A DNA stretch of 64,000 bases from Trueperaceae bacterium (GCA_034521815.1 JAXHLW010000001.1:128001-192000), one strand, 5' to 3'. Positions 1 through 18,199 are shown, counted from the first letter of the stretch. Numbers and translations are program-made. The notes: generated by a model not told the origin, from the letters alone.

Positions 1-184
1 GCCCGTCGGCGCGATCCGGCTCTGGTTCGATCCGGAGCGTGGCGACGCCGCCTCGCTGTCCGACCTGATGGAGCCCAACGACCCGGCCGAGCTCGAGGCG
101 ATCCCGATCGGGACGGCCGTGAACCGTCCCGGCAACGAGGGGCCCGAGCTGCTGGAGCCGCACGGGGAGGCGCTGCGGGTCTAG
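1..184 (+). CDS. SOS response-associated peptidase (SRAP/YedK/HMCES family), 3' fragment
   Basis: Frame 2 translates to ...IRLWFDPERGDAASLSDLMEPNDPAELEAIPIGTAVNRPGNEGPELLEP..., with TAG at 182-184. This matches the SRAP C-terminal pattern W.DP...PV...VN...N.GPEL.EP. Truncated by the window edge. Confidence 0.8.
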   Translation, partial: PVGAIRLWFDPERGDAASLSDLMEPNDPAELEAIPIGTAVNRPGNEGPELLEPHGEALRV

Positions 185-195
185 CGCCCGGCTCT

Positions 196-251
196 CGTCG
201 CGAAACCCGCGTCGCGACACCCGCGTCGCTACACCCGCGTCGCTACACACC
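196..251. repeat. 14-bp tandem repeat, 4 degenerate copies
   Basis: CGTCGCGAAACCCG / CGTCGCGACACCCG / CGTCGCTACACCCG / CGTCGCTACACACC. Confidence 0.9.
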
Positions 252-280
252 TCGGCTTCGGCCGCGGCGACAATGACGCC

Positions 281-2089
<1,809 letters not shown>

Positions 2090-2094
2090 GCGGC

Positions 2095-4635
2095 GTGGAC
2101 GCAGGCGTGGACGCAGCCGTTCCGTTCGGCCGAGGCGCGCACGATCCCGACCGAGCGGTCGACGCAGCTCGCAGGCGGCTGTCGGAGCTGGGCAGCGAGA
2201 CGGTGGCGGCACGCTCGCTGCCGCCGCGCGAGGGAAGCTTCGCGCCGCTTCCCAGCGACCTCCCGCGTCCGCTGGCGTCGGCGCTGGCGGAGGCGGGGAT
2301 CGAGAGGCTGTACCTGCACCAGCGGGCGGCCATCGACGCCGTTCGGGCGGGCGACGACGTGCTCCTCACGACCGGCACCGCCAGCGGCAAGAGCCTCGCC
2401 TATCAGCTTCCGATCGTGGCCGGCCAGCTGGCCGATCCGGCCGCGACCGCGTTGGCGTTGTTCCCCACCAAGGCGCTGGCGCACGACCAGGCGGACGGCT
2501 TCGCGCGGCTGGCGTCGGACGCCGGGCTGCCCGCCGGCACGGTCGCCGACTACGACGGCGACACCCAGACCCACCGCCGGCCCGGGATCCGGGCCGAGGC
2601 GCGGACGCTGCTCACGAATCCCGACATGCTGCACGCCGCGATCCTGCCGCACCACACCCTTTGGCGACGGTTCCTGACCGGGCTTCGCTGGATCGTGGTG
2701 GACGAGGTGCACGTCTACCGCGGCGTGTTCGGCGGGCACCTCGCCGGGGTGCTGCGGCGCCTGGTCCGGGTCGCGCGCCACTACGGCGCCGACCCGCGCG
2801 TGATCGCCACCAGCGCCACGCTGGGCAACCCGGTCGAGCACGCACGGCGGGTGCTGGGCCGCGACGTCGTCCATATCGACCGGGACGCCGCGCCCCGCGG
2901 GCCGCGCGAGGTGCTGCTGGTGCGCCCGCCGCTGGTCGACGAGGCGCTGGGGCTTCGCCGTCCGGCGTTGGCCGAGGCCGCCTCGTTGGCCGGACGGCTG
3001 GCGGAGGACGGCCTGCAGGTCCTGGTGTTCGCCGGCTCGCGTCAGGGGGCCGAGGAGGCGGTGGTGCAGCTGCGGGGCCGGACGAGCGGCGTCCGGACCT
3101 ACCGAAGCGGCCTGCTGGCCGGCGAGCGGCGCCTCATCGAGCGGGAGCTGCGCGACGGCGTGGCGCGCGTGGTCGTGGCGACCAGCGCGCTGGAGCTGGG
3201 CATCGACGTGGGCGGCGTGGACGCCGTCGTGATCGCGGGCTACCCGGGGTCGGCGGCGGCGTTCTGGCAGCAGATCGGCCGGGCGGGCCGGCGCGGCAGG
3301 CCCGGCCTGGGCGTGCTGGTGCTGGCGGGCGGGCCGTTGGATCAGTACCTCGCTCGGCACCCTGAGCACCTGTTCGGCGCCGCGCCCGAGCGTGCGCTGA
3401 GCGATCCCGACCACCTCCTGCTGGCGCTCGATCATCTGCGCTGCGCGGCGTTCGAGCTGCCGATCGAGCCGGACGAGCGCTTCGGCGGCTACGGACCGGA
3501 GGAGATCGCGGCGCTGGGCCAGCAGATGCGGGCCGACGGCGAGGCGCACGTCGCGGGCGGGCGGATCTACTGGCTGGGGGATCGCTACCCGGCGGAGGGC
3601 GTGTCGCTCCGCTCGGCCGGGCGCGACGAGGTCGCGTTGCTGGCGGACGGGGTCGCGATCGGCACGATCGATGCGCCCAGCGCCCGCTGGATGGTGCACC
3701 CGGGGGCGGTGTACCTGCACGACGGTCGCCCTCACCTGGTCGAGGAGCTGGACCTGGCCGAGCGGGTCGCCCGGCTGCGTCCGACCGACGATGCCGTGCT
3801 GACGCGCGCCAACCGGGAGACGCGGATCGATCCGGTCGGTCGGCCCGACGCCCGGGCCGTGCGCGGCGCGACGGTGCTGACGGGCGAGGTGACCGTCACC
3901 GAGCGCGTGACCGGCTACCGCAGGATGCGGCGCGTGACGCGCGAGACGCTGGGCCGGTTTCCGTTGGTGCTGGAGCCGTCGCGTCTGCGGACGCGGGCGT
4001 ACGCGTTCGCCCCGGACGAGGCCACGGTCGGGCGTCTGCGCGCCGCGGGCGCGTGGAGCAACGACGCCAACGACTACGGTCCCGACTGGCCCAGGCGGCG
4101 CGCGGCCGCGCTGGCGCGCGACGGCCACGCCTGCCGGGTGTGCGGCACCAAGGCGACGTCGGGGACGCGGCTGCACGTTCACCACGTCGTGCCGTTCCGA
4201 GCGTTCGCGAGCGCGCGCGAGGCCAACCGGGCGGACAACCTCGCCACGCTCTGCCCGTCGTGCCACCGCCGTGCCGAGCAGGGCGTCAGGGTGCGGAGCG
4301 GCCTCGCAGCGGTGGCGTACGCGATGCGGTCGCTGGCGCCGTTGCGGGTGCTGTGCGACGCCCGCGATCTGGGCGTGCACGCCGATCCGAGCAGCGCCGT
4401 GGCGGACGGCGGACCGGCGCTGCTGATCTACGAGACGGTGCCGGGGGGCGTGGGGCTGACCGACGAGCTGGCGCGGCGCCATGACGAGCTGGTGGCGGCC
4501 GCGTTGGAGCTGGTCGCCGGCTGCGGCTGCGAGGACGGCTGCCCCGCCTGCGTGGGGCCGGCCGGCGAGCCGGGGCACGCGGGCAAGCCCGAGGCGATCG
4601 CGGTCCTGACGGCGCTGACGGGGAACGACGCGTGA
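2095..4635 (+). CDS. MrfA/YprA/Hrq1-family DEAH helicase with C-terminal DUF1998 Zn domain and an inserted HNH nuclease domain
   Basis: 3' part of ORF 421..4635; start GTG 2095 or 2107, just after the uvrC stop. Motifs LYLHQ, TGTASGKS, TNPDMLH, DEVH, SAT, ATSALELGIDVG, QQIGRAGR; C-terminal CDARD...YETVPGGVG...CGCEDGCPAC; internal CRVC...HVHH...N...N..TLCPSCH. Confidence 0.9.
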   Translation: MDAGVDAAVPFGRGAHDPDRAVDAARRRLSELGSETVAARSLPPREGSFAPLPSDLPRPLASALAEAGIERLYLHQRAAIDAVRAGDDVLLTTGTASGKSLAYQLPIVAGQLADPAATALALFPTKALAHDQADGFARLASDAGLPAGTVADYDGDTQTHRRPGIRAEARTLLTNPDMLHAAILPHHTLWRRFLTGLRWIVVDEVHVYRGVFGGHLAGVLRRLVRVARHYGADPRVIATSATLGNPVEHARRVLGRDVVHIDRDAAPRGPREVLLVRPPLVDEALGLRRPALAEAASLAGRLAEDGLQVLVFAGSRQGAEEAVVQLRGRTSGVRTYRSGLLAGERRLIERELRDGVARVVVATSALELGIDVGGVDAVVIAGYPGSAAAFWQQIGRAGRRGRPGLGVLVLAGGPLDQYLARHPEHLFGAAPERALSDPDHLLLALDHLRCAAFELPIEPDERFGGYGPEEIAALGQQMRADGEAHVAGGRIYWLGDRYPAEGVSLRSAGRDEVALLADGVAIGTIDAPSARWMVHPGAVYLHDGRPHLVEELDLAERVARLRPTDDAVLTRANRETRIDPVGRPDARAVRGATVLTGEVTVTERVTGYRRMRRVTRETLGRFPLVLEPSRLRTRAYAFAPDEATVGRLRAAGAWSNDANDYGPDWPRRRAAALARDGHACRVCGTKATSGTRLHVHHVVPFRAFASAREANRADNLATLCPSCHRRAEQGVRVRSGLAAVAYAMRSLAPLRVLCDARDLGVHADPSSAVADGGPALLIYETVPGGVGLTDELARRHDELVAAALELVAGCGCEDGCPACVGPAGEPGHAGKPEAIAVLTALTGNDA

Positions 4636-5879
4636 GCGATCTGCTGGATCGTCTGCGGGCGCTTCGCGGCGACGCGCCGGCAGACGACGCCGCTCCGGAG
4701 CTCCCTGCGGCCGATCCGGGCTGGGAGGGCGTCGCCGCGCAGCTGGACGCCGCGTCGGTGGTGGTCGAGAACGGGGTGCACCTGGTGCGACGGGCCCGGC
4801 TGGAGCGGGGATCCGTCCACGGTCGGTCGCCGATCGGTGGGGACGGTCTCCACCCCTGGCTCGGCCGCTGGGCGTCCAAAGGCGCCGGTGCGCCAAGGAC
4901 CGTACGCGCGCCCTCGCCGACGGCTCGGACCGCTCCCGCCAAGGTCGTCTACCTGGATACCGAGACGACCGGCCTGGCGGGGGGAACGGGGACGTACGCG
5001 TTCCTGGTGGGCGTCGGGACGCACGACGCGGACGGGTTCCTGGTCGAGCAGCTGTTCCTGCCCGGTCCGGAGCACGAGCGCGCCTACCTGACCGCGCTGT
5101 CGGAACGACTCGCGGGCGCGTCGGCGGTGGTGAGCTACAACGGCGCGAGCTTCGACCTGCCGCTGGTGCGCACGCGCTTCGCGATGCACGGGCTCGCCGA
5201 TCCTCTGGAGGGCGTGCCGCACCTGGACCTGCTTCCCCTGGCCCGGAGGCTGTGGCGCCGAAGCCTGCCGGACTGCACCCTTGGAACGGTGGAGCGCGAG
5301 GTGCTCGGGGTGCGACGGAGCATCCGGGACGTCCCCGGCGCCGAGGTGCCGGCGCGCTACCTGGCGTTCCTGAGGTCTCGCGACGCGCGCCCGCTACGCG
5401 GCGTGCTGGAGCACAACCTGGACGACATCGTCGCGCTGACTGCGATGCGGTCGCGGATCGAGGCGATGCTCACCGTCCGGCTCGCACCGTCGGCGCCGTC
5501 GCGACCCGGGCCGGCTGCCGACCCGTTGGAGCTCCACGGGCTGGGCCGCTGGCTGGAGGCGATCGGCGAGCTGGACGCCGCGCTGGCGCACTACCACGCG
5601 GCCGAGACGCAGCTTGCGGACGCCGCCTGGGACGTGGCGCGATTGCTGCGGCGGGCCGGCCGGCATGGCGAGGCGGCCGCCCGCTGGAGCCGCCTGGCGG
5701 CCGGCGGCGACGCCCGGGCGTGGATCGAGCTGGCCAAGTACCGCGAGCACCGCCTGGGCGACGTCGACGGAGCTCTCGACGCGCTCGAGGCCGGGCGGCG
5801 TTGCGGCGGAGCGCGACACGACGACCTCGAGCGACGCCGGGCACGGCTGCTGTCGCGGAGGGCGCGAGAGCGCGGCTGA
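4632..5879 (+). CDS. MrfB/YprB-like RNase H-fold (DEDD) exonuclease with C-terminal TPR-like helices
   Basis: YLDTETTGLAGGTGT, SYNGASFDLP, HLDLL, EHNLDDI; C-terminal IELAKYREH. GTGA overlap with the helicase, the usual mrfA-mrfB order. Confidence 0.88.
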   Translation: MSDLLDRLRALRGDAPADDAAPELPAADPGWEGVAAQLDAASVVVENGVHLVRRARLERGSVHGRSPIGGDGLHPWLGRWASKGAGAPRTVRAPSPTARTAPAKVVYLDTETTGLAGGTGTYAFLVGVGTHDADGFLVEQLFLPGPEHERAYLTALSERLAGASAVVSYNGASFDLPLVRTRFAMHGLADPLEGVPHLDLLPLARRLWRRSLPDCTLGTVEREVLGVRRSIRDVPGAEVPARYLAFLRSRDARPLRGVLEHNLDDIVALTAMRSRIEAMLTVRLAPSAPSRPGPAADPLELHGLGRWLEAIGELDAALAHYHAAETQLADAAWDVARLLRRAGRHGEAAARWSRLAAGGDARAWIELAKYREHRLGDVDGALDALEAGRRCGGARHDDLERRRARLLSRRARERG

Positions 5880-5897
5880 TCGGCGGGTGTCCGAGGT

Positions 5898-6545
5898 TCA
5901 GTCGTCGCCCGACGCTGCGCCGCGCGCCCCGTCCGTTCCGGCCCCCGACCTGAAGCGACCGCCGCAGCCCTTGTGCCGATAGGCGGCCGGGGGATGCTTG
6001 GGTCTGCGGTAAAGGCCGACCTCGGCGCCACAGCGTGCGCACACGAGCACGTGGGGCGCCGGCACCAGCGGCCCGGCCCGACAGGTCGCCTCCGGCCGAG
6101 CCCCGATCTCGCGCGCCACCGCCCGCCACAACGGACCGTGGTTCATCGCCGCGCGCCCGTGGCGGACGTAGGCGACCGCGTGGGCGATCTCGTGAAGCAG
6201 GGTGTCGCGGACCATCTCGGGCGTGCCGTCCGTCACCAGGTGCCGACTGATGCGGATCGTCCCCGTGGCCGCGCCCGCCCGGACGCGGGTCGTTCCCAGC
6301 GTCCGTTTCCCCCGTCCGAAGCCGAAGGCCCAGTCGTCGAGCCCGTGGCGGAGCATGCGCTCCGCCGCGTCCGCCTCGACGGTGGCGAACGCGGACGGCG
6401 TGGGGCGCGGGCGCAGCAGCCAGACCTTTCCGCGTTCGTCCTCGACGAGGTGGGACGCCGTTCGGCCGCGCGTGGCGTCGTCGGGGGGACGAACGGCGCC
6501 GAGGAGGCGCTGCGCGTGAGCGTGTCGGGACCGGGCGTGGCTCAT
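5898..6545 (-). CDS. SprT-like Zn metalloprotease
   Basis: DTLLHEIAHA (HExxH), HGPLWRAVA, C-terminal CARC...HKGC Zn ribbon. ATG 6545 lies 7 nt after a TAGCCT -10 box. Confidence 0.85.
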   Translation of the reverse strand: MSHARSRHAHAQRLLGAVRPPDDATRGRTASHLVEDERGKVWLLRPRPTPSAFATVEADAAERMLRHGLDDWAFGFGRGKRTLGTTRVRAGAATGTIRISRHLVTDGTPEMVRDTLLHEIAHAVAYVRHGRAAMNHGPLWRAVAREIGARPEATCRAGPLVPAPHVLVCARCGAEVGLYRRPKHPPAAYRHKGCGGRFRSGAGTDGARGAASGDD

Positions 6546-6725
6546 GGCTCGAAGGCTACCGCGCGTCGTCGTACGGGCGCGCGGCCATGGGGTGGTCGTG
6601 CCGAGCGTCAGCACGGCTCGGGCCCGGCGCTCGTGAACGCGTGCCGCGACGAGACTGGCTCACGACCCGGAACGGAAACCCGGCCGCCGCACGCGTCTAT
6701 ACTCGGCCCACACGGAGGAGGACCG

Positions 6726-7613
6726 ATGGATCACGACCGAGACGAGCTCGAGGCCGCCGCGAGGCGGCTCGAGGCGCATCCCGACTACCGCGTCCAACGC
6801 AGGCTGCCCGACGATCCGTGCAGCGAGGAGGCCGGACCGGTGTTCCGGCGCGGCCTGTACGTCGACGTGGAGACGACCGGCATCGACGCGGGCAGGGAGA
6901 AGATCATCGAGCTGGCCATGGTCCTGTTCGGCTACGACGCCGAGGGTCGCATCACCGGCGTCGAGGCTCGGTTCGACCAGCTCGAGGACCCCGGTCGGCC
7001 GATTCCGCCCGAGATCGTCGAGCTCACCGGCATTTCGGACGAGGACGTCCGTGGACGCCGCATCGACGAGGGCGAGGTCGCCGAGCTGGTCCGCCGGGCC
7101 GACCTGATCGTCGCGCACAACGCCGGGTTCGACCGAGCGTTCCTCGAGAAGAGGATCGGCGTCTTCGCCGAGCAGCCGTGGGCGTGCAGCGCGCAGGACG
7201 TTCCTTGGCGCTACGAGGGGATGGAGAGCCGCAAGCTCGAGTTCCTCGCCTATCGGTCGGGCGTCTTCTACGACGGCCACAGAGCGATCGCGGACTGCCT
7301 GGCGGGCGTGTACGTGCTGGCGCGCCCCTTGCCGCGAAGCGGCGTGACCGGCATGGCGAAGCTGCTCGAGTCCGCGCGCCGTAGCGACGTGCTGTTCAGG
7401 GCCGTGGGCGCTCCGTTCTCGACCAAGGACGTGCTCAAGGCGCGTGGCTATCGTTGGCGGCCCGACGCCAAGGTGTGGTGGAAGCAGGTTCCCGAGGCGG
7501 ACGCCGATGCCGAGCGCGCCTGGCTGGCGAGCGACGTGTACGGCGGGAACGTCAGTCGCGCCACCGAAGCGGTCGTGACGGCGTACGAGCGCTACTCGTC
7601 CCGAGGGTCGTAA
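6726..7613 (+). CDS. DnaQ-like 3'-5' exonuclease (DEDDh)
   Basis: YVDVETTG, AHNAGFDRAFLE, HRAIADC; C-terminal APFSTKDVLKARGYRW domain; GGAGGAGG RBS before ATG 6726. Confidence 0.9.
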   Translation: MDHDRDELEAAARRLEAHPDYRVQRRLPDDPCSEEAGPVFRRGLYVDVETTGIDAGREKIIELAMVLFGYDAEGRITGVEARFDQLEDPGRPIPPEIVELTGISDEDVRGRRIDEGEVAELVRRADLIVAHNAGFDRAFLEKRIGVFAEQPWACSAQDVPWRYEGMESRKLEFLAYRSGVFYDGHRAIADCLAGVYVLARPLPRSGVTGMAKLLESARRSDVLFRAVGAPFSTKDVLKARGYRWRPDAKVWWKQVPEADADAERAWLASDVYGGNVSRATEAVVTAYERYSSRGS

Positions 7614-7750
7614 GGCTCCAGCCCGGCCCTCGCACGCCGAAGCACGCGCGCGTCCGAAGACCGTGCGCGCGTCTGCCACGCGGTCCCGGCGTGCGCAGCG
7701 TCCCCAGTGTGATACTCTTCTCAAAACCCCGCGCTAGCTGGGAGGTCGTC

Positions 7751-9166
7751 ATGGACGAAGGCAACGTCCGGCCGCATGCCGGACAGCAGGGAGACGGAAC
7801 CGTACACCGTGTCGGCCTGACGCGGCACTGCATCGCCTCCGGCGTCGTCCAGCTACCCTTCGCCCTCAGGGACACTCTTCCTGAGGGCGAGCTCTTGGCG
7901 CTGGACGTCGAGCGGGACGAAGCCGTCGTGCTCGAGGTCGTACCGCCTCGTGCGCTGTCCGGTCTCGCCGACTTCTTCGAGGCCCACGATCTGCAGGTGA
8001 ACGATCGGCTCGAGATCCGCATCCGTGGCCGCGACCTGGGCGAGGTGCGGCTCGTCGCGGTTCGCAGCGCTCGCCGCCCGACCAGGAGCGAGGACCGTCG
8101 GCTCGGAGCCGACGATCGTGCGGCGGAGCCCAGCAGCGAGCCATCATCCCCGTCCGCCGACTCCCCGAGCGGCTCGGCTGTCCGTGACGACGTGCCCTCG
8201 TCGGTGTCGCGGCCGGGACCGTCGCCGCTGCCCGACACATCGGTCCAGGACGCCCTGGATCACGGCGACTGGTCCTCTGCGCGTGCGTCCTCGGATGGAC
8301 CGGACGTCGTCGAGACGATCGGCAGCGTGACGGTCCGGCGCCTCGGCGCGGGCCGGTTCGCCGCTCCGGCCCCCACCACCCTCGCGCGACGGGCCGAGGA
8401 TCTGGAGGCCGAAGCACCGTCCACGCGCGATGCCCGGCTGGGCGTCAGCGGCCGGACCGACGCCGTGGCCGACACGAGCGCCGACGCGGCCGCCGAAGAG
8501 TCCCCCGGCGAGCCGCTGGACGCGCCTGTCGAGACGCGAACCGAGCCGACCGAGCCGGCCGAGCCGACCGAGCCGACCGACCGACCGACCGGCCGAGCCG
8601 GCCGAGCCGGCCGACGCGGAGCTCGATGACCTGCTGGTCGTGGACGACGCCCAGACGCCGACGCTCGACGGCGCCGTACGACAGCCCAGCCTGTTCGCTC
8701 CGCGAGACGGTGTGCGCCCACCGTTCCGCCCGCCGGCACGACCTCGACCCGCTCCCGATCCTGCGGCGAGCTCTCCTGCGGCGAGTCCACCTGCGGCGAG
8801 TCCTCCGACGACGAGTACTCCGCGGCGAGTACTCCCGCGGCCCGCCCGCGGCCGGAGGCCGTTCAGCTGAGCGAGAGCGACCTCGCCGATCCCGATGTCG
8901 TCGCGACCGTCCGGCAGCGCGCGCGCGAAGAGGAGCTCAGCCGCGCCGGCGACCTGCGCAGCCGGGTCGTGCGCTGGCTGTTGGCACCCACCACGCCCGT
9001 GATCGTGCCGATCGAGCGTGTGCAGCACGCGTTCGATCTTCCGGTCGACGTCGCGCGCGACGTGGTCGACGGCGTTCTCGAGGAGCCGCCTCCCAGCCTG
9101 CGCCTGACGCGCCTGCGCGAAGACCTGCTTCGGGTCTCGCGCGTCACCGTCGAGCACGACGCCTGA
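7751..9166 (+). CDS. Hypothetical protein, two predicted folded ends joined by a Pro/Ser/Asp-rich linker; frameshifted in this sequence
   Basis: GGAGG RBS and ATG 7751. Three missing bases inside tandem repeats (after ~8580, after ~8588, at ~8821) join ORFs 7454..8629, 8430..8870 and 8969..9166 into one ~470-aa ORF. Confidence 0.65.
8540..8615. repeat. 9-bp coding tandem repeat (EPT/EPA)
   Basis: (A/G)CCGAGCCG units; two units lack a G. Confidence 0.9.
8760..8833. repeat. 15-bp coding tandem repeat x5
   Basis: CCTGCGGCGAGCTCT / CCTGCGGCGAGTCCA / CCTGCGGCGAGTCCT / CCGACGACGAGTACT / CCGCGGCGAGTACT (last unit 14 nt). Confidence 0.9.
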
Positions 9167-9185
9167 GCCGAGACGCTGGGCCGCC

Positions 9186-12100
9186 CTACGCCAGCCAGTC
9201 CGACGCCAGCCAGCCCGACTCCAGCCAGGCCGCGAGCGTCGTGGCGGAGGCTCCCGAATGAGCAGCACGGTCGTCGCGCCGGCCTTCGCGCGACGCTTCG
9301 TGCAGGGCGTGCTCGACGGCCAGCACCCGCTCGGCGGGCGTGGACGCCGGTCGCGGATCCAGGTAGCCGTGCTCGCGTAGCCAGGCCGCCAGCGCTTCGC
9401 GGGCGTCGTCCCGGAACCGCTTGACCTCGCCTCGCGCCAGGGCGGCCAGCAGTGCCTCCGCATCCCCGGACGACGCGTCCGCGATCTCGGCGACGCGGTC
9501 CAGGAACGCCGCGCTCACGGCGTCGCTGGCGGCCAGTGCGGCGCGGTCCACGGCACGTCCGCGACCGATGCGCCAGCGGCGCGACCAGGCGCGCGTCGCC
9601 GTCACCCGCGCGCCGAGGAGCTCGAGGTCGGCGGTGCCGAGGAGGCGTTCCGCCTGAGGGCCGTCCGCCAGGAGCGACGACAGCGCACCGATCGTCACGA
9701 TCCTGAGTCGCACCAGGGCGTGCACCAGGTCCAGCCGGTCGTGCAGCAGGTGAAGCGGATGGATCCGCTCCGGTCGCCACGGATCCACGGGCGGTACGCC
9801 CAGCACCGACGCGTAGCCCACGGCGTCCAATCCGTTCGGAGCCGGCGGCTCGCGCCACGCCGGGGGGCGCGCCCCGAGCGTCGGCGTCGTTTCCTGGCGG
9901 CCCCGAATCTCGGCCAGGTCCAGGACGGTGGGCGCCTCGATCCGGCCTTCCGACCGATCGGCCAGCTCGCGCCACAGCACCGCATCGTCCCGGCGAGCGC
10001 TGAGGTAGAGGACCTGCCGGCCCTCGTCGCGCGTCAGCGTGGTGAGCGCCTCTGCCACGGCAGCGAACCGTCCGACGTCGCTGGTCGTCAGCGCCTCGTC
10101 CAGCACCAGCGGCAGCGACGGACCGCCCTGCTCCGCCTCGAGCGCATGGGCCAGCCGGAGAGCCAGCAGGAGCTGTGCCTTCGTTCCGCTGGATAGCTCG
10201 TCCAGGGCGCGCTTGCGACCGTCCGTGCGACCGTCCGTGCGATCCACGGCGTGCACGCGCTCGGCGCCGTCTGCCGTGGTATCGAACGCCAGGGCGAAGG
10301 CGTGATGCGTGAACCGAGCGAACCAGGTCTCGGCCCGCTGGAGCGCGGCGGGCCTGCGCTCGCTGCGAAACGCGTGCTCGAGATGATCGAGCACGGCTGC
10401 GGCCGCTTCGCCGTCCAGCACCTGCTCGTACGCGTGCTCGAGCGCGTCGTGAGCTTGGCGCTCGACCTGACGCGCTGCGGTCAGGTCCCGCTCGCGGCGG
10501 GCGCGCGCCAGCCGCTCGTCGATGGCGGCGATCGCCCCGGTGGCCTCGTCGGCACGGTCGGCGGCCGCTAGCGCCTCGTCCAAGGCGTGACGAAGAGCGG
10601 TCTCGTCGCCTGCCTCGACCTGGGCACGAACGCCCGCGTCCGCGTCGACGATGGCCAGGTGGTGATCGAGAACGCCCTCCAGCCGGATGCGCTCGTCGCG
10701 CAGGCGTCGCCAGTCGGGCAGGCGGTCGGCGCGACGCCGGAGCTCGCGCATGGCGTCCGCGGGGTCGTGCTGGACCTGGTCCAGCGGTCGGTCCGACATG
10801 GCGGCCAGCAGCTCGTCGCGGCGGGCCCGTACCCGATCGAGCTCTTCATGGGCCCGGGCACGGGCGCGATCGGCCGCCTCGCGCCGGGCGGCGGCCTGGT
10901 CGCGCCGACGGACGCGCTCCGCCAGCTGGGCCAGGCGTGCCCGTACCGTCGCCGAGGCCGGCACGGTCGCCGGCGTCGGCTCGTCACCGTGCGCACGCAG
11001 GATCTCCGCCAGGCCGGCCGCACGCAGCTCGGTGTCGAGCCTCGAGCGGGCCTGCTGCAGGTGAGCGATCGCTGCGGCCTCGGCCTGGCGTGCGCCGCGC
11101 AGCGACTGGCCCGCCTCGCGCAGCTCGGCGGCGCGGCGCGCTCGCTCCAGCGCGGATCGCCCCGCCTCGCCTGCGTGCAGGCCGGCGCGTGCGGCACGAT
11201 CCGCGAGCTGACGCTCCAGACGATCCGAGCGGATCTCGGCTTCCTCGAGCTCGGCGTGAAGCTGGACGCGTCGGGCCGAGCGGATGGCCTCGGCCTCCCG
11301 CGCGTGCCGGGCCTCGGCCGCGTCGCTCGCGGCCTGGGCCAGACGGGCGCGAACCGCGGCGCGGGTCCAGACCGTGGGCGGCTCGGCGACCGCGTCCGCG
11401 AACGAGGTCCGCGCCTCCCGCCTCGCTCGCCGGGCACGGTGCCTCTCCGCAGCCGCTCCGGCGTCCAGCACGACACCCACCGCAGCCGACGCGCCCGCCA
11501 GGATCAGCAGTCGTGCGGCGCGGCTGGACAGGTCCAGCGCATCGAGCGAGAGCCAGGCCGCGCCCGCAGCGCCGACGACGGCGGCGAGGTAGGCGACGGA
11601 GCGCGCGCGGCGCCGCCACCGTCCACGGGCGTCGGGCGTCGCCAGCCAGTCGCTGAGCAGGTCCACGGCCCGGTGGGCGCGGTCCGGGTCGACCGACGGC
11701 TCGGGCGAAGGCGGTATCTCCCGCAGCGCGAGCCGCGCCACACGAGCCTCGCTTCGCGCCCTCTGGGCCTCGTCCGCGATCGCATCGAGCTCGTCCAGCT
11801 CCAGCGGCGTCGGTCCCACGACCGCGCCCAAGGGGTCGGGTCCCGACGCTTCCTGCAACGCGGCCACCCGGCCGGCCCGCTCGGCGGCGTGCCGCTCTGC
11901 GTCGCGGACCGTTCGTTCCGCGTCGGCCAGCGCCTCGGCGGCGGCCTGCCACGACGCGACCTGCGCGGCGTCGGGCCGACCGTCCTCGAGACCGGTCGCG
12001 GCCTTCTGGGCGTCGGCCGCGTCGAGCTCGGCCTCCTGCCGGCCCACCTCGCTCACCGCCCGGTCGACGGCGTCTGCGAGAGCGTCGGCGTCCTGAACGA

Positions 12101-12806
12101 CGCCTTCGTGCAGCCCGTCCAGCCCGGCGGGGTACGTCCTGGCGCGCGCCTCGACGGACGCGAGCGCCCGCCGGGTCGCGAGCACGTCCAGCGCGGAGCG
12201 CAGCAGGGGAGCCGAGGCCGCCTGCGCTTGCGCACGCCCACGGCGCTCCTCCCAGTGAACGAGCTCCTGCTCGTCGGCCGCGAGAGCGTCCCGCTGCCTG
12301 CGCACCTTGCCCAGCGCTTCGCGGGCGCGCTCCAGCTCGCTTCGCAGCGGGGAGCCGTAGCGCGGACCCAGGCCGGCCAGCTCGCTCCGGGCGCGAGGAA
12401 GATCGACGCCGCCGGCCAGCTCGCTGGCCAGCCGGTCGGCGATCCTCAGGTCGGCACGTCCGAACCGGTGCAGGTCCTCGAGGTTCAAGAACAGCCCGTC
12501 CAGCAGGTGGCCGGCAGGCAGGGGCGGGGGATCTGCCGGCTCGCCGTCCCGCTCCCAGCGCACGGCGTCCCCGACCCGGGTCGCTCGCCATACCTGGCCG
12601 TCCCGGTCGTCGAAACGAGCCTCGACGTGCGCCCCTGCGCCACGCGAGGCCTCCGGGTCGACCAGGGTGCGGACGGCGTGGACCAGACGGCTCTTGCCCG
12701 ACGCGTTCGGTCCGACCACGAGGTTCGTCCCTGGCGCGAATCCACGCACCACGAACGGCTCGTCGACGCCCGGAAGCGCGTGGACGCGCAGCTCGACCAG
12801 CCTCAT
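9186..12806 (-). CDS. Rad50/SbcC-like SMC-type ATPase (YhaN-type) with long C-terminal extension
   Basis: Walker A GPNASGKS, coiled coils, central hydrophobic hairpin, signature LSSGTKAQLLLALRLA, Walker B LPLVLDEAL; overlaps the upstream metallophosphoesterase gene. Confidence 0.85.
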   Translation of the reverse strand: MRLVELRVHALPGVDEPFVVRGFAPGTNLVVGPNASGKSRLVHAVRTLVDPEASRGAGAHVEARFDDRDGQVWRATRVGDAVRWERDGEPADPPPLPAGHLLDGLFLNLEDLHRFGRADLRIADRLASELAGGVDLPRARSELAGLGPRYGSPLRSELERAREALGKVRRQRDALAADEQELVHWEERRGRAQAQAASAPLLRSALDVLATRRALASVEARARTYPAGLDGLHEGVVQDADALADAVDRAVSEVGRQEAELDAADAQKAATGLEDGRPDAAQVASWQAAAEALADAERTVRDAERHAAERAGRVAALQEASGPDPLGAVVGPTPLELDELDAIADEAQRARSEARVARLALREIPPSPEPSVDPDRAHRAVDLLSDWLATPDARGRWRRRARSVAYLAAVVGAAGAAWLSLDALDLSSRAARLLILAGASAAVGVVLDAGAAAERHRARRARREARTSFADAVAEPPTVWTRAAVRARLAQAASDAAEARHAREAEAIRSARRVQLHAELEEAEIRSDRLERQLADRAARAGLHAGEAGRSALERARRAAELREAGQSLRGARQAEAAAIAHLQQARSRLDTELRAAGLAEILRAHGDEPTPATVPASATVRARLAQLAERVRRRDQAAARREAADRARARAHEELDRVRARRDELLAAMSDRPLDQVQHDPADAMRELRRRADRLPDWRRLRDERIRLEGVLDHHLAIVDADAGVRAQVEAGDETALRHALDEALAAADRADEATGAIAAIDERLARARRERDLTAARQVERQAHDALEHAYEQVLDGEAAAAVLDHLEHAFRSERRPAALQRAETWFARFTHHAFALAFDTTADGAERVHAVDRTDGRTDGRKRALDELSSGTKAQLLLALRLAHALEAEQGGPSLPLVLDEALTTSDVGRFAAVAEALTTLTRDEGRQVLYLSARRDDAVLWRELADRSEGRIEAPTVLDLAEIRGRQETTPTLGARPPAWREPPAPNGLDAVGYASVLGVPPVDPWRPERIHPLHLLHDRLDLVHALVRLRIVTIGALSSLLADGPQAERLLGTADLELLGARVTATRAWSRRWRIGRGRAVDRAALAASDAVSAAFLDRVAEIADASSGDAEALLAALARGEVKRFRDDAREALAAWLREHGYLDPRPASTPAERVLAVEHALHEASREGRRDDRAAHSGASATTLAAWLESGWLASDWLA

Positions 12807-14139
12807 GAGGTCTCCGACGATCGCTGAGCCAGCAGGTGGTCCAGCACCCGTGCCGCGGCCGCCTCGAGCCGCCCCACGATCTCGTCGTCGCTGGGCGCGG
12901 ACGCGTCGAGCGGGGCGAACGCGGCACGGTCGCGCACCTGGGTCAGGCGCGGCCGTGCGTCGTTCACGAGCGCCGACATCGCTGGCGAGGGTCCTCCCCG
13001 GAGGATCTGGAGCGTCCTGGCGGCGATCCCGATCGGGTCGCTCCCTTGGGCCAGACGGGCCAGGTCGACCGCCGGTCGAAGGCGGACGTCGACGTCGTGA
13101 ACGATGGCGTGCACGCCGCGGTGTTCGACGCGCAGCTCACGGGGATCCTGGCGCGCGAGATGCGAGCGCAACGCGTCCGGGTGCTCGACGCGGCCCGTGA
13201 GACGCAGCCGGACGGCGACCAGGCGCAGGACGGACGCCCTCCTCTGCGCGCTCCCGCCCGCATCCCCGCCCGCGCCCCGGGCGCGTCGCCTGGCGCATCG
13301 ACGAGGTCGGCCAGCCGGTCGCGCACCGCCCGGATCAGCCGGGGCGCGACCGTTTCGGGCGTCGCTCCAGCGAGGTCCACCTCCACCGTCTCGTACCGCA
13401 ACGGCGAGAGCGCACGGTGCTCGAAACGCAGCTCGCCGGCGTCCGTCGTCACGACCCAGGCGCCCCGGCGTCCCGCCTCGCCCGGATCGCAGGCCGAGAG
13501 CGAGCCCAGGTACCCCATGCGCGCTCCCTCGTCGAACCGTCCGGGCACGTGGACGTGGCCCAGCAGCCAGGCCGAGACGGGGATCGCCGACAGCTCGGAG
13601 CCGCGGACCGGCGCGTAGGGGCTGGCCGTCTGACCTACATCGGCGTGCAGCAGACCCAGGGTGGTGCTGGGCCCCGGCGCTCGCACGATCGCCGCGAGGC
13701 GGTCGTCCAGCGGCGACGCGTCGACCTGCTCGCTGGGAAACGACCAGCCCACGACGCGGACCGCGTTCGGGCCGCCTCCCACCGTCGTGGCCTCCCAGCG
13801 GCCGCCGTCGCCCAGGAGCCGCACGCCGGGGATCGTCTCGGCCAGCCGCGGCAGGACGCGCACGTCGTGGTTCCCGGCGACGGCGAGGACCGGGATTCCC
13901 GCTCCGACGAGCCGCCGGACGCCCTCCTCCAGGTCGGCGTACGCCTCGTACAGGTCGCGCGGATCGTCGACGACGTCGCCCGCGAGCAGCAACGCGTCGG
14001 CACCCTCGTGCACGCAAGCGTCCACGAGGGTGCGCCACGCCGCGGCGGGACCGAGCTCCGTGGGGTCGACGGCGAGGTCGGACGGGAGCCGGGAGGGAAC
14101 GCGTCCCAGGTGCAGGTCGGCGGCGCAGAACAGCTTCAT
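12803..14139 (-). CDS. Mre11/SbcD-like metallophosphoesterase nuclease (YhaO-type); frameshift near 13275
   Basis: ADLHLG, AGDVVD, AGNHD, LLHAD, LGHVH. The C-terminal domain continues in the frame of ORF 12803..14038 if one base is added to the C4 run at 13275-13278. Confidence 0.85.
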
Positions 14140-14190
14140 CGACGCCCCGAGGCTACCGCGTGCGCGACGCGTCGGAAGCAGCGCCCCTCG

Positions 14191-14224
14191 CGCCACCGGG
14201 ATCCTGGCGCCACCGGGATCCTGG
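14191..14224. repeat. Perfect 17-bp tandem duplication
   Basis: CGCCACCGGGATCCTGG x2, intergenic. Confidence 0.95.
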
Positions 14225-15349: not shown

Positions 15350-15464
15350 GAAGCGAATCTACCAGCGCTCCTGCCGGTCCGGCGAGACCCTCGGCGGACG
15401 GACGCAATCGGTAGGCTGGTGCCGTGTCTTGCCGCGATCGGTCGCGACCCTTTGGAGGATCCAC

Positions 15465-18199
15465 GTGAGCTCGCCCCGCATCGTGCGGGTCGGTCCGCGC
15501 GTTCCTCGCCGCGACGACGTGCCGGGCGGCGCCGTCGTCCTGACCCCGTCGCGGCGAGCCGCGGCCGCCCTGGGGACGCCGTACGCCTCGCTGCACGGAG
15601 CGGCGACCGAGGACCTGAACCGGGCAGGCTGGAGCGTGGCCGCGCCGCTGCGCTGCTGGCGGGCGCTGGGCACAGCGGTGCGCGAGGTGGTCGGCGACGA
15701 CGACGCGGTCGCTTGGCGGCGGGCCCTGGCCGCTCCGGTGCGCGAGCTGCTCCGTCTGGGGGCCGTCCACGACGACCCGGACGGAACTGCGCCGCCCGGC
15801 CTGTCGCTGGCGTCGCGTCGGGCGTGGCGGGTCGCCGCCGGCTATCACGCGCTGCTGGCGAGCGAGGCGCAGGTGGACCCTGTCGCCGTGCTGGACTGGG
15901 CGTCACGGACGGCGCGCGCTCCACGCCGGACGCCCTGGGCGGTGATGGGCTTCGCCGACCTGGAGCCGGCGGCGTGCCGCTACCTGGACGCGGTGGCGGC
16001 GCCGGGCACGCTGGTGACGCTTCCGCCCGACGCGACCTTCGCCGCGAGCCGGCTCACGGCGCTGGGCTGGACGGCACGCAGGGACGAGCGGCCCCCGGAG
16101 AGCAGCGGCGAGCGTTGGGCGGCGCGCTTTCTGGGCACCCTGGCGCCGGAAGCGACGGGTGGCGCGGAGGGGGAGGCGAGCTCGCCCCGTGACGAGGAAG
16201 GGGAGGACGCCCCGGCCGCGTTCGCCTTCGCGTCGGCCGACGACGAGGCCCGCTGGGTGCTGGCCCGCGTGCAGCGTCTGCTGGCGCAGGGAACGCCGCC
16301 GGCCGAGCTGCTGATCGTGGTGGCCGATCCCCCCGGCGCGGCCGCGCGCCTGGACGCCGTCGCCTGGGAGCTGGGCGTCCCGCTGCGCATCGACCGGCCC
16401 GTCCCGCTCTCGGCGACGGCGGTCGGCGGCGTGGTGGCCCTGATGGGCGAGGTCGTCGCGCGCAGCGCACCGTACGAGGCGACGGCGCGGCTGCTGCGCC
16501 ACCGCCTGGTCGGCGGCCTGGACGACGAGGCGTGGACGCGGGCGCGAGCGGTCCGGCCCGCCGGAACGGCCGCCTGGTCGAGAATCGATCCCCGAACCGC
16601 CGAGCTGGCCTGGCCCGAGCGCGCTACGCGCGCCGAGCTGGGCGAGCGCTTCCAGCGGACGCTGAGCGTCCTGGGCCTGCCGCGTGAAGGTCTGGCGCCG
16701 CCCGCCGCGGCGACCGTCGGTCTGGTGCTGCGAGGCGTCCAGGAGGCGTGCAGCCCGGCCGCCGAGGTCGTGACCCGGCGGGCGTTCCTGGATGACGTGA
16801 ACGATCTGCTGACGCTGCTGACCGTGCGTCCTCCACCGGCCGTGCCCGCGCCGCGCGGGCGCGCCGTCGAGGTGGTGGCCCCGCGAGCGGCGGCCGGCGC
16901 CCGCGTCCGTCACCTCTTCGTGCTGGGCCTGAACGAGGGGGCTCTTCCTGCCGACCTGCGCGACGACGCGGTGCTGGACTTCGTGGACCGGGGTCGGGCG
17001 CGCCAGGCGGGGCTCGACCTCCCGGACGCGGCGCAGCGGGCGCAGGCCGAGGTGGGCGCGTTCGCGGCGACGCTGCGGACGGCGGAGGGCGAGGCGGTTC
17101 TCGGCGTTCCGGGCCGTGGCGGGGGAGCGACGCTGCTGCCCAGCCCGTTCCTGGCTCGCCTCGGCGTTCGTCCGTCGCGTCCACCGGATCGCGCGCCCGC
17201 CAGTCTGGAGGAGGCTCGCCGCAGCTGGCTGCAGAGCGCCGAACCGCCGGCCGGAGACGAGGAGGTGTGGGCCCACGCCCGGCGATCGTGGTCGGTCGAG
17301 CTGACGCGCGAAGGCGCCGGCGCTCCGGGTGTGCACGACGGGGTGACGGGGCGACCTTCGGACGCTTCCGAGCACACCTTCAGCGCCACCAGTCTGGTGG
17401 ACCTGGGGCAGTGCCCGTTCCGTTGGTTCGGCCGCTACCGCCTCCATCTTCGCGACGTCGAGGAGGCGGACGAGCTGGTGACCCCGATGCTTCGTGGGCG
17501 GCTTTGGCACGCCGCGCTGGAGCGGGCGGTCGCGCGTGCCGGCGCCGGGGAGGGCAGGGCGTCACGCGACGCCGTGCTGGCCGTTCTGGACGACGCGTTC
17601 GCCGAGGCCGAGAGGCTGGTGGGGGTGCCGGACCCGGACGGTCCGGCCTGGGGTCGCGTCCGCGGCGGCGAGCTGCGGGCGCTGCAGCGACTGGTGAGAT
17701 CCGACGCGTTCGTGACGGCGGGGCTGGTGCCGGTCGAGGTCGAGCGGCCGTTCACCGCGACGTGGCGCGGCCTGCCCGTCCGCGGCGTCGTCGACCGCGT
17801 CGACGAAGGACCCGGCGGCGTCGAGCTGATCGACTACAAGTCCGGCACCAGCGCGCCGAAGGGCGCGCAACGCGCCTCCGGGCGGGGCTGGATCGACGTT
17901 CAGCTGCCGCTGTACCTCGAGGCCGCCGCTCCCCAGCTCGGACGGGAGGGGGCGCCCGCGACCGCCCGCTACCTGTCGGTCCGGGCCGCTGCCACGCTCA
18001 AGTCGGTGACGCCGGGGAGAACGACGCCGACCTGGACGAGCTGGCCTCGCGGGTGCGCCACCACCTGGCGGAGGGCGACTACCGCCTGGCGCCGGATGCG
18101 CGCCGCGAGGTGTGCAGGACGTGCGAGCTGGGGCTCGTCTGCCGCGTGGGGCCGCGTATCGAGCGCAAGCGGGACGCCGCCGCCGCGGAGGCGCCGTGA
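15465..18199 (+). CDS. AddB-like protein: inactive helicase scaffold plus PD-(D/E)xK nuclease with 4-Cys cluster; frameshift near 18014
   Basis: GGAGG RBS and GTG 15465. FVLGLNEGALP, SATSLVDLGQCPFRWF, RGVVDRVD, LIDYKSG, QLPLY. Adding one G to the G4 run at 18014-18017 gives ...CRTCELGLVCR, ending in a GTGA overlap with the next gene. Confidence 0.82.

What the first reader, a model, noticed from the sequence alone, without database searches (positions are those of the whole stretch)
4054..4290. Intact-looking HNH nuclease domain inserted inside an MrfA/Hrq1-family helicase
Seen: between the helicase core and the DUF1998 Zn domain there is a ~75-aa in-frame insert, WSNDANDYGPDWPRRRAAALARDGHACRVCG...LHVHHVVPFRAF...ANRADNLATLCPSCHRRAE. 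It has the CxxC...HH...N...N..LCxxCH pattern of McrA-like HNH endonucleases, and I see no intein termini. Known: characterised MrfA, Hrq1 and SftH proteins are helicases without a nuclease, and related DUF1998 helicases occur in defence systems such as DISARM. Inference: a single-chain helicase-endonuclease that could nick or cut at lesions and pass ends to the coupled MrfB-like exonuclease. Similar architectures may already exist in databases; I know of no functional description.
Basis: partly seen in the sequence, partly recalled or inferred. Interest (0 to 1): 0.75.

Follow-up and report, generated by a model that had tools for sequence, protein, structure and literature searches.

The report
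Repair helicase with built-in DNA cutter
A DNA-repair helicase of the MrfA family carries an intact, strongly conserved DNA-cutting (HNH) domain and is inherited together with its exonuclease partner MrfB, so it may supply the cutting step that published models of this repair pathway leave unassigned.

Summary
Confirmed. Gene 2095-4635 (+) is an MrfA/YprA helicase with an HNH domain (Pfam 37.2 bits, cut-off 21.4) between the connector and the zinc domain. H696/H697/N715/H724 match the GVE2 nickase active site and are intact in 309 of 313 distinct helicase-linked inserts. The insert is under purifying selection like the motor (dN/dS 0.11 vs 0.13) and its divergence tracks the helicase: a domesticated phage-type HNH, not an intein or active homing element. 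It occurs in at least 96 of 131 Anaerolineae genomes, 93 with mrfB. In Deinococcota it occurs in 15 of 301 genomes and mrfB in 15, 14 shared; trees favour transfer from an Anaerolineae-type lineage. Here it lies in polA-SRAP-uvrC-mrfA-mrfB. Best reading: a motor-coupled, ZRANB3-like nickase serving MrfAB repair (0.55); no activity shown. No description found in the searches run. This scan noted the same architecture before on other genomes.

The parts
1..184 (+). 3' end of a SRAP/YedK-like gene (abasic-site protection); a polA-like gene lies upstream of it, outside the window
   Evidence: Own-genome ORF C1:127363-128181 contains a MCGRY start (motif recalled as the SRAP N-terminus). The syntenic genes in relatives score as SRAP (L252, E 3.8e-65) and Pol I (L261). 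The 60-aa tail alone had no Pfam hit.
281..2089 (+). uvrC, with GIY-YIG and RNase H nuclease domains
   Evidence: Pfam PF01541, PF08459, PF22920. Adjacent in 6 of 12 long loci of the family, all six of the same genus.
2095..4635 (+). MrfA/YprA-family SF2 helicase, 846 aa from a GTG start (true start may lie a little later): RecA1, RecA2, WH, OB, CON, HNH insert, MZB
   Evidence: 6ZNP E 5e-154; AlphaFold pLDDT 89.6; Foldseek 6ZNP E 1.3e-69. Motifs I, II, III, VI and the MZB cysteines are present.
4054..4290 (+). HNH nuclease insert (W654-R732): zinc site C680/C683/C720/C723; H696 (4180-82, metal ligand), H697 (4183-85, general base), N715 (4237-39), H724 (4264-66, metal ligand), E728 (helix +4 position)
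   Evidence: Residue roles inferred from GVE2 HNH (PMC5304195), ZRANB3 (PMC5481773) and the His-Me finger survey (PMC5714182).
4315..4554 (+). MZB/DUF1998 zinc-binding domain (C754, C810, C812, C816, C819)
   Evidence: Pfam PF09369 E 2.3e-19; C810, C812, C816 invariant, C754 and C819 in at least 90% of A1.
4632..5879 (+). mrfB: DEDDh 3'-5' exonuclease with TPR tail; its start overlaps the mrfA stop (GTGA)
   Evidence: Pfam RNase_H_2 E 1.2e-34; 8UN9 E 5.6e-30; D/E/D/H/D invariant in 28 of 28 aligned sequences; overlap.

Best explanation
A single-chain helicase-endonuclease of the MrfAB repair pathway. Shown: the anatomy, the intact active site, purifying selection, and co-inheritance with mrfB. 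Inferred: (1) the motor loads on 3' single-stranded DNA and moves 3'-to-5', as B. subtilis MrfA does; (2) the HNH domain has lost the sequence-reading modules of its phage relatives, so the motor positions it; (3) riding on the MZB domain, which lines the duplex entry funnel and the proposed exit channel of the displaced strand, it nicks one strand at or near the fork that the motor opens, probably only during ATP hydrolysis, as ZRANB3 does; (4) MrfB degrades from the 3' end and Pol I fills the gap. Whether the cut is the entry nick, a second cut 5' of the lesion, or a trim of the displaced strand is not resolved; the position on MZB fits the last two better than a first nick in unbroken duplex.
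For: Active site intact in 309 of 313 distinct helicase-linked inserts and 115 of 116 further proteins. In GVE2 the H697-equivalent H93A abolishes nicking without changing the CD spectrum (PMC5304195), so a structural role alone does not explain its conservation. dN/dS 0.113 (HNH) vs 0.129 (RecA core) over 14 non-overlapping pairs. Fold matches: GVE2 HNH Z 8.8 (rmsd 4.0, 86 aligned), EcoKMcrA Z 6.5 (3.6, 73), ZRANB3 HNH Z 6.3 (2.9, 76). Deinococcota: HNH form in 15 of 301 genomes, mrfB in 15 of 301, 14 shared, while 273 have some MrfA-like match. Anaerolineae: 93 of 96 HNH+ genomes have mrfB; 12 of 12 genomes whose only match is the HNH-less paralogue lack it. Local context polA-SRAP-uvrC-mrfA-mrfB. 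A 2026 review states that at least one factor of the pathway is still unknown (PMC13705206); the published model names no incising enzyme (10.1101/426304).
Against: No activity was tested. B. subtilis MrfAB works without the insert, and 58 of 80 best genome-contig loci lack it, with no similar free HNH in their flanks, so the domain is not needed for the pathway in general. uvrC is next door and uvrA is found in all 10 other genomes of the genus, so another incision source exists. In Chloroflexota mrfB lies within the fetched flank in only 9 of 89 HNH+ loci. No LexA-box enrichment upstream (3 of 87, 1.1 expected; 0 of 15 in this family). The 'unknown factor' in PMC7797055 is proposed for lesion targeting, not for cutting. 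Related genomes are not independent samples.
Confidence: 0.55

Rival explanations
1. Active nuclease, but used for fork, flap or D-loop processing in replication restart or recombination, not for adduct excision with MrfB.
For: ZRANB3 precedent; mrfB usually not adjacent in Chloroflexota (9 of 89 loci); no LexA box enrichment; MrfAB function is proposed to differ between species.
Against: mrfB tracks the HNH form genome by genome and is directly downstream in 13 of 15 loci of this family, the other two ending at a contig edge.
Confidence: 0.17
2. The insert no longer cuts; it serves as a zinc-stabilised DNA-binding or lesion-sensing module.
For: No activity shown; lesion targeting is the open question named in PMC7797055; H696 replaces the Asp of GVE2 and ZRANB3.
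Against: General base and metal ligands intact in 309 of 313; His at that position is also found in 64 of 64 free relatives and in EcoKMcrA.
Confidence: 0.12
3. A selfish, intein-less homing endonuclease that keeps itself by cutting insert-free alleles.
For: Nearest free relatives are homing-type HNH proteins with NUMOD3, HTH, zinc-finger or HNH_repeat modules and HNH genes of haloviruses and mycobacteriophages. Patchy in this family (18 of 128 genomes; 1 of 10 in one genus). One HNH+ gene (L222) falls at the base of the HNH-less Bacillus-type clade.
Against: No DNA-reading module in the insert. HNH distances track the core as well as MZB does (Spearman 0.68 vs 0.63); the nearest neighbour by HNH is in the top five by core in 78 of 103 (86 of 103 for MZB). 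Apart from the Bacillus-type clade, no insert-free gene lies among the 103 HNH+ rows. Almost no decayed copies.
Confidence: 0.07
4. An anti-phage helicase-nuclease like the defensive YprA branches (DISARM, ARMADA, Druantia).
For: YprA helicases with fused nucleases are defence effectors (PMC12458937); weak PADLOC hits of the insert to ZorE (E 3.5e-8).
Against: PADLOC hits cover only generic helicase or HNH parts; the tree places it with MrfAB repair helicases; none of the recurring neighbours that were scanned is a defence gene, several had no Pfam hit; present in most genomes of a class; no match covering 80% of the query in phages or plasmids.
Confidence: 0.06

Closest known systems
Bacillus subtilis MrfA (YprA; PDB 6ZNP/6ZNQ/6ZNS) with MrfB (YprB; PDB 8UN9)
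   Same: Same domain order, motor motifs and zinc domain; coupled downstream DEDDh+TPR exonuclease.
   Different: About 78 extra residues forming an HNH nuclease at the CON/MZB junction; host lineage; mitomycin specificity untested.
Human ZRANB3 (SNF2 motor + HNH; PDB 5MKW)
   Same: SF2 motor and HNH domain in one chain; HNH fold match Z 6.3, rmsd 2.9, 76 aligned; works-like model: ATP-dependent, structure-specific nicking.
   Different: Different motor family (a dsDNA translocase; recalled), C-terminal rather than inserted HNH, PCNA motifs; an analogue, not a relative of the whole protein.
Phage HNH nickases (GVE2 HNH, 5H0M/5H0O) and homing-type HNH proteins of haloviruses and mycobacteriophages; EcoKMcrA (6GHC)
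   Same: Catalytic module with [CxxC]2 zinc site and H-N-H residues.
   Different: The free proteins stand alone, many with their own DNA-binding modules; here only the catalytic module is kept, inside a helicase.
Defensive YprA helicase-nucleases (ARMADA, Druantia, TALON, DISARM DrmA/B)
   Same: YprA/DUF1998 helicase joined to or paired with a nuclease.
   Different: Their nucleases are Vsr, PLD, RNase H or EEP types at the C-terminus or in separate genes; HNH is not named for any YprA branch in the text or supplements searched.

Membership tests
MrfA/YprA (DUF1998) helicases | SF2 RecA1/RecA2 core with intact motifs I, II, III, VI | tested here: met
MrfA/YprA (DUF1998) helicases | WH, OB, CON and four-cysteine MZB domain in MrfA order | tested here: met
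   (TM by target 0.76 to 6ZNP).
MrfA/YprA (DUF1998) helicases | 3'-to-5' DNA unwinding | not testable with these tools
   Inferred from B. subtilis MrfA.
MrfAB repair system | Partner DEDDh exonuclease with intact catalytic residues, linked or co-occurring | tested here: met
MrfAB repair system | Protects against mitomycin C adducts independently of UvrABC | not testable with these tools
   Needs genetics; UvrABC coexists.
HNH (His-Me finger) nucleases | Profile score above the curated cut-off and beta-beta-alpha-metal fold | tested here: met
   PF01844 37.2 bits vs 21.4; fold matches.
HNH (His-Me finger) nucleases | General-base His, loop Asn, helix His/Asn metal ligand, [CxxC]2 | tested here: met
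HNH (His-Me finger) nucleases | Metal-dependent DNA cleavage | not testable with these tools
   No assay possible.
Inteins | Hint splicing domain with Cys/Ser start and His-Asn end | tested here: not met
   No such Pfam hit at E 0.1; insert of about 78 aa, ends do not fit (intein termini recalled).
Active homing endonuclease genes | Patchy spread with empty alleles and a history discordant with the host gene | tested here: not met
   residual doubt from L222 and from the position of the Bacillus-type clade.
DISARM/ARMADA/Druantia defence systems | Conserved operon with methylase, second helicase or other system genes | tested here: not met
   Only mrfB recurs across genera.
ZRANB3-type ATP-dependent endonucleases (works-like claim) | Cleavage that needs ATP hydrolysis by the linked motor | not testable with these tools
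   Analogy.

The most novel reading that the evidence does not exclude
HNH-MrfA plus MrfB is a complete two-protein excision system (cut, unwind, resect) independent of UvrC, and it is the ancestral state of MrfAB: the widespread Bacillus-type MrfA descends from HNH-bearing forms by loss of the domain, so the factor still missing from the B. subtilis pathway would be a free-standing nickase. The best trees nest the Bacillus-type clade inside the HNH-bearing grade; a single gain without loss is only narrowly not rejected (AU p 0.13 and 0.055).
Probability: 0.2. Interest if true: 0.82.

Novelty: new variant of a known kind. Interest (0 to 1): 0.62.

Why it matters
MrfAB is an excision pathway made of a helicase that needs a 3' tail and an exonuclease that needs an end; no enzyme that opens the DNA has been assigned and a 2026 review still lists an unknown factor. 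A natural MrfA with a built-in, selected HNH site makes the question testable with one protein and one mutation (H697A). It would also be a bacterial parallel of ZRANB3, and a case of a phage homing-type nuclease module taken into chromosomal repair, kept across most of a bacterial class and moved to another phylum.

Tried and rejected
Intein or intron: no Hint domain, no Rfam match. Recent insertion: codon composition equals the host gene. Duplication of the resident Deinococcota paralogue: rejected (AU p 0.001 and 0.0006). Replacement of a lost UvrA: uvrA was not found in this 83.5% complete assembly but is in 125 of the 127 other family genomes, including all 10 of the genus. LexA control: no enrichment of GAAC-N4-GTTC-type boxes (pattern recalled) upstream of HNH+ genes, whereas HNH-less Bacillus-type genes gave 7 of 56 against 0.7 expected; first genes of operons were not scanned. 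No sigma-70 promoter or terminator in 1-7800. Rosetta-stone test: no similar free HNH beside 58 HNH-less loci (narrow profile, flanks up to 6 kb). Joint transfer of mrfB from Anaerolineae: the MrfB tree keeps this family's 13 sequences together (0.95) but does not join them to the Anaerolineae MrfBs, with weak deep support, so it is not shown. Expression: one RNA run with share 0.14; its contigs lie in pieces on uvrC, mrfA and mrfB, thinly on the insert, with no joint skipping it: too weak to use. The first AU test did not finish and was redone on a 49-row set (constrained trees from a fast search). The cluster look-up for names of divergent relatives could not be made, so the range outside Chloroflexota and this family is not settled. 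No complex prediction was sent (textbook pair, over the size limit). Literature searches without a description of an HNH-bearing MrfA: MrfA+HNH+helicase, DUF1998+HNH, MrfA/MrfB/mitomycin/incision, Hrq1+HNH, YprA+HNH, SftH+helicase+endonuclease; most subscription papers are outside the library.

Full report
Observation. The ORF 2095-4635 (+) encodes 846 residues. Pfam gives DEAD 75-247, Helicase_C 303-401, WHD_HRQ1 437-508, HNH 680-727 (37.2 bits, cut-off 21.4) and MZB 741-820. B. subtilis MrfA (6ZNP) aligns on both sides of the insert and is the best fold match of an AlphaFold model with mean pLDDT 89.6. It lies after the connector, at the start of the MZB domain as delimited in PMC7797055. 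It has no intein domain or termini and its third-position GC equals that of the rest of the gene.

The insert looks like a working nuclease. Its best solved relative by sequence and fold is the phage GVE2 HNH nickase (E 1e-6; Z 8.8, rmsd 4.0, 86 aligned), then EcoKMcrA and the ZRANB3 HNH domain (Z 6.5 and 6.3, which is in the middling range). GVE2 H93, N109 and H118 align with H697, N715 and H724; H93A abolishes nicking without changing the CD spectrum (PMC5304195). H696 precedes the general base and E728 lies four residues after H724, both usual metal-ligand positions (PMC5714182). H696, H697, N715 and H724 are all kept in 309 of 313 distinct helicase-linked inserts; the four exceptions are short database fragments that look locally frameshifted. 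In 116 further proteins 115 keep the motif and one has N715 replaced. These sets were partly chosen by similarity to the insert, but loci chosen with the whole helicase also showed no exception at those four positions. Over 14 non-overlapping close pairs dN/dS is 0.113 for the HNH and 0.129 for the RecA core.

Origin. The closest free relatives are 100-480-residue HNH proteins, many with NUMOD3, HTH, zinc-finger or HNH_repeat modules (30 of them scanned; sequences), and HNH genes of haloviruses and mycobacteriophages (55 phage records). Only the catalytic module is in the helicase. Among 103 HNH+ rows, HNH distances follow the core as closely as the neighbouring domains do, and no insert-free gene lies among them except the Bacillus-type clade discussed below. 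This fits one old capture followed by vertical inheritance, not current homing.

Distribution. The closest named homologues are labelled Trueperaceae, the next Chloroflexota; I infer that the window's family is Trueperaceae (Deinococcota). In 301 Deinococcota genomes the HNH form was found in 15, all in this family, 13 of them with a second, HNH-less MrfA-like match; the window's genome has such a paralogue on contig C13. In the whole family it is in 18 of 128 genomes and 7 of 36 genera. Of 80 best genome-contig loci, 22 carry the insert (one split across two frames) and all 22 are titled Chloroflexota. An even sample of 301 genomes from that phylum gave 32 with the insert in a long frame. In 131 genomes of the class of an Anaerolineales genome, at least 96 have it: 72 confirmed by profile on fetched DNA, 24 by a match that spans the insert. 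Atlas clusters with HNH+MZB are mostly Chloroflexota where a phylum is known. The range in other phyla is not settled.

History. Trees were built without the insert columns; loci lacking the MZB end, duplicates and the short loci L111-L140 were left out of the 221-row tree. The family's 15 genes form one clade that joins Anaerolineales genes. On a 49-row subset, grouping them with the resident Deinococcota paralogues is rejected (AU p 0.001 and 0.0006), as is a Chloroflexota HNH clade that excludes them (p 0.002 and 0.0006). Transfer from an Anaerolineae-type lineage is the simplest reading. The best trees nest the HNH-less Bacillus-type MrfA clade inside the HNH-bearing grade; monophyly of HNH+ genes is not rejected (p 0.13; 0.055 with a mixture model). 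Gain once, or gain followed by loss in the Bacillus-type ancestor, both remain open; long-branch attraction of the outgroup could produce the nesting.

Partner. mrfB overlaps the helicase stop codon, matches 8UN9 and keeps its DEDDh residues. In Deinococcota it was found in 15 of 301 genomes, 14 of which are the HNH+ ones; the HNH+ exception ends at a contig edge 238 bases after the helicase, and the mrfB-only genome is 80% complete. In Anaerolineae 93 of 96 HNH+ genomes have it; of the 35 others 12 have it (three beside a Bacillus-type MrfA) and 23 do not, including all 12 whose single match is the HNH-less paralogue. Against a tight unit: it lies within the fetched flank in only 9 of 89 Chloroflexota HNH+ loci, and the MrfB tree does not show joint transfer. 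Kin are not independent, so I give no p-values. Locally the order is polA, SRAP, uvrC, mrfA, mrfB, with uvrB about 2 kb before polA on the other strand; this order is shared only within the genus (uvrC in 6 of 12 long loci, polA and SRAP in 4). No recurring neighbour that was scanned is a defence gene and no LexA box is enriched.

Mechanism. B. subtilis MrfA unwinds 3'-tailed DNA 3'-to-5'; the duplex enters a funnel formed by RecA2, OB, CON and MZB, the displaced strand is proposed to leave between MZB and RecA2, and MZB rotates on DNA binding (PMC7797055). MrfB is a 3'-5' exonuclease modelled near the emerging 3' end (PMC11194089). The pathway is independent of UvrABC and its model names no incising enzyme (10.1101/426304); a 2026 review says at least one factor is unknown (PMC13705206). 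An HNH on MZB would ride on the part that meets the fork. I infer a motor-coupled single-strand cut at or near the junction, as in ZRANB3, whose HNH needs ATP hydrolysis by its motor (PMC5481773), with MrfB resection and Pol I filling. Confidence 0.55. The side of MZB on which the site lies could not be measured. Rivals: fork or recombination processing apart from MrfB (0.17), non-catalytic binding (0.12), homing (0.07), defence (0.06).

Comparison and novelty. It is a member of the MrfA/YprA family and of the HNH family by every sequence feature tested, works most likely like ZRANB3 in coupling motor and cut, and fails the intein, homing and defence-operon tests. The survey of about 52,000 YprA proteins (PMC12458937) has 'HNH' only in a reference title and, in its supplements, in one unrelated structure name (the large table was cut when stored and one supplement store did not answer). 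Six searches found no description. Automatic names in the Atlas already list HNH+MZB, so the architecture is visible in databases. Verdict: new variant of a known kind, interest 0.62. Seven earlier notes of this scan report the same architecture on other genomes with the same reading; they are not independent support.

What I saw of each paper: PMC12458937, abstract, passages, section 9, supplement term search; PMC7797055, passages and sections 15 and 25; 10.1101/426304, passages and discussion; PMC11194089, PMC5304195, PMC5481773, PMC13705206 and 10.1101/2025.09.30.679545, passages; PMC5714182, passages and a supplement term search (no DUF1998, PF09369, COG1205 or YprA). Others were seen only as search listings.

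Noticed in passing
window 5898-6545 (-) and 6726-7613 (+): A SprT-like metalloprotease gene and a DEDDh (RNase_T family) exonuclease gene follow mrfB; both recur in 5 of 12 long loci of the family, extending the repair-gene cluster.
   Followed up: partly
window 9186-14196 (-): A 1206-aa protein with an SMC-type P-loop and an overlapping metallophosphoesterase gene: looks like an SbcCD/YhaN-YhaO-type nuclease pair (family name recalled).
   Followed up: no
window about 15350-21140 (+): An AddB-like gene (PD-(D/E)XK) followed by a UvrD/AddA-like helicase start near 18200; the AddB-like reading frame appears to change near 18000, a frameshift or an assembly error.
   Followed up: partly
window about 205-250: A short tandem repeat of about 15 bases, three to four copies, in the spacer between the SRAP-like gene and uvrC.
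   Followed up: no
window 7751-9261 (+): A low-complexity ORF without Pfam hit that seems to continue in another frame after a run of short repeats near 8545-8625.
   Followed up: no
G000:C1:119927-124594 (-), upstream of the window: uvrB and, before it, a P-loop ATPase gene of HerA/FtsK appearance (motif recalled) lie back to back with polA.
   Followed up: no
Anaerolineae loci L173-L210, L215, L216; own paralogue G000:C13:302974-305754: A second, HNH-less MrfA-like paralogue without mrfB forms its own clade shared by Anaerolineae and Deinococcota; many genomes carry both types.
   Followed up: partly
L222 (G628:C104:1496-3955): An HNH-bearing gene whose helicase part falls at the base of the HNH-less Bacillus-type clade: a key sequence for deciding gain versus loss.
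   Followed up: partly
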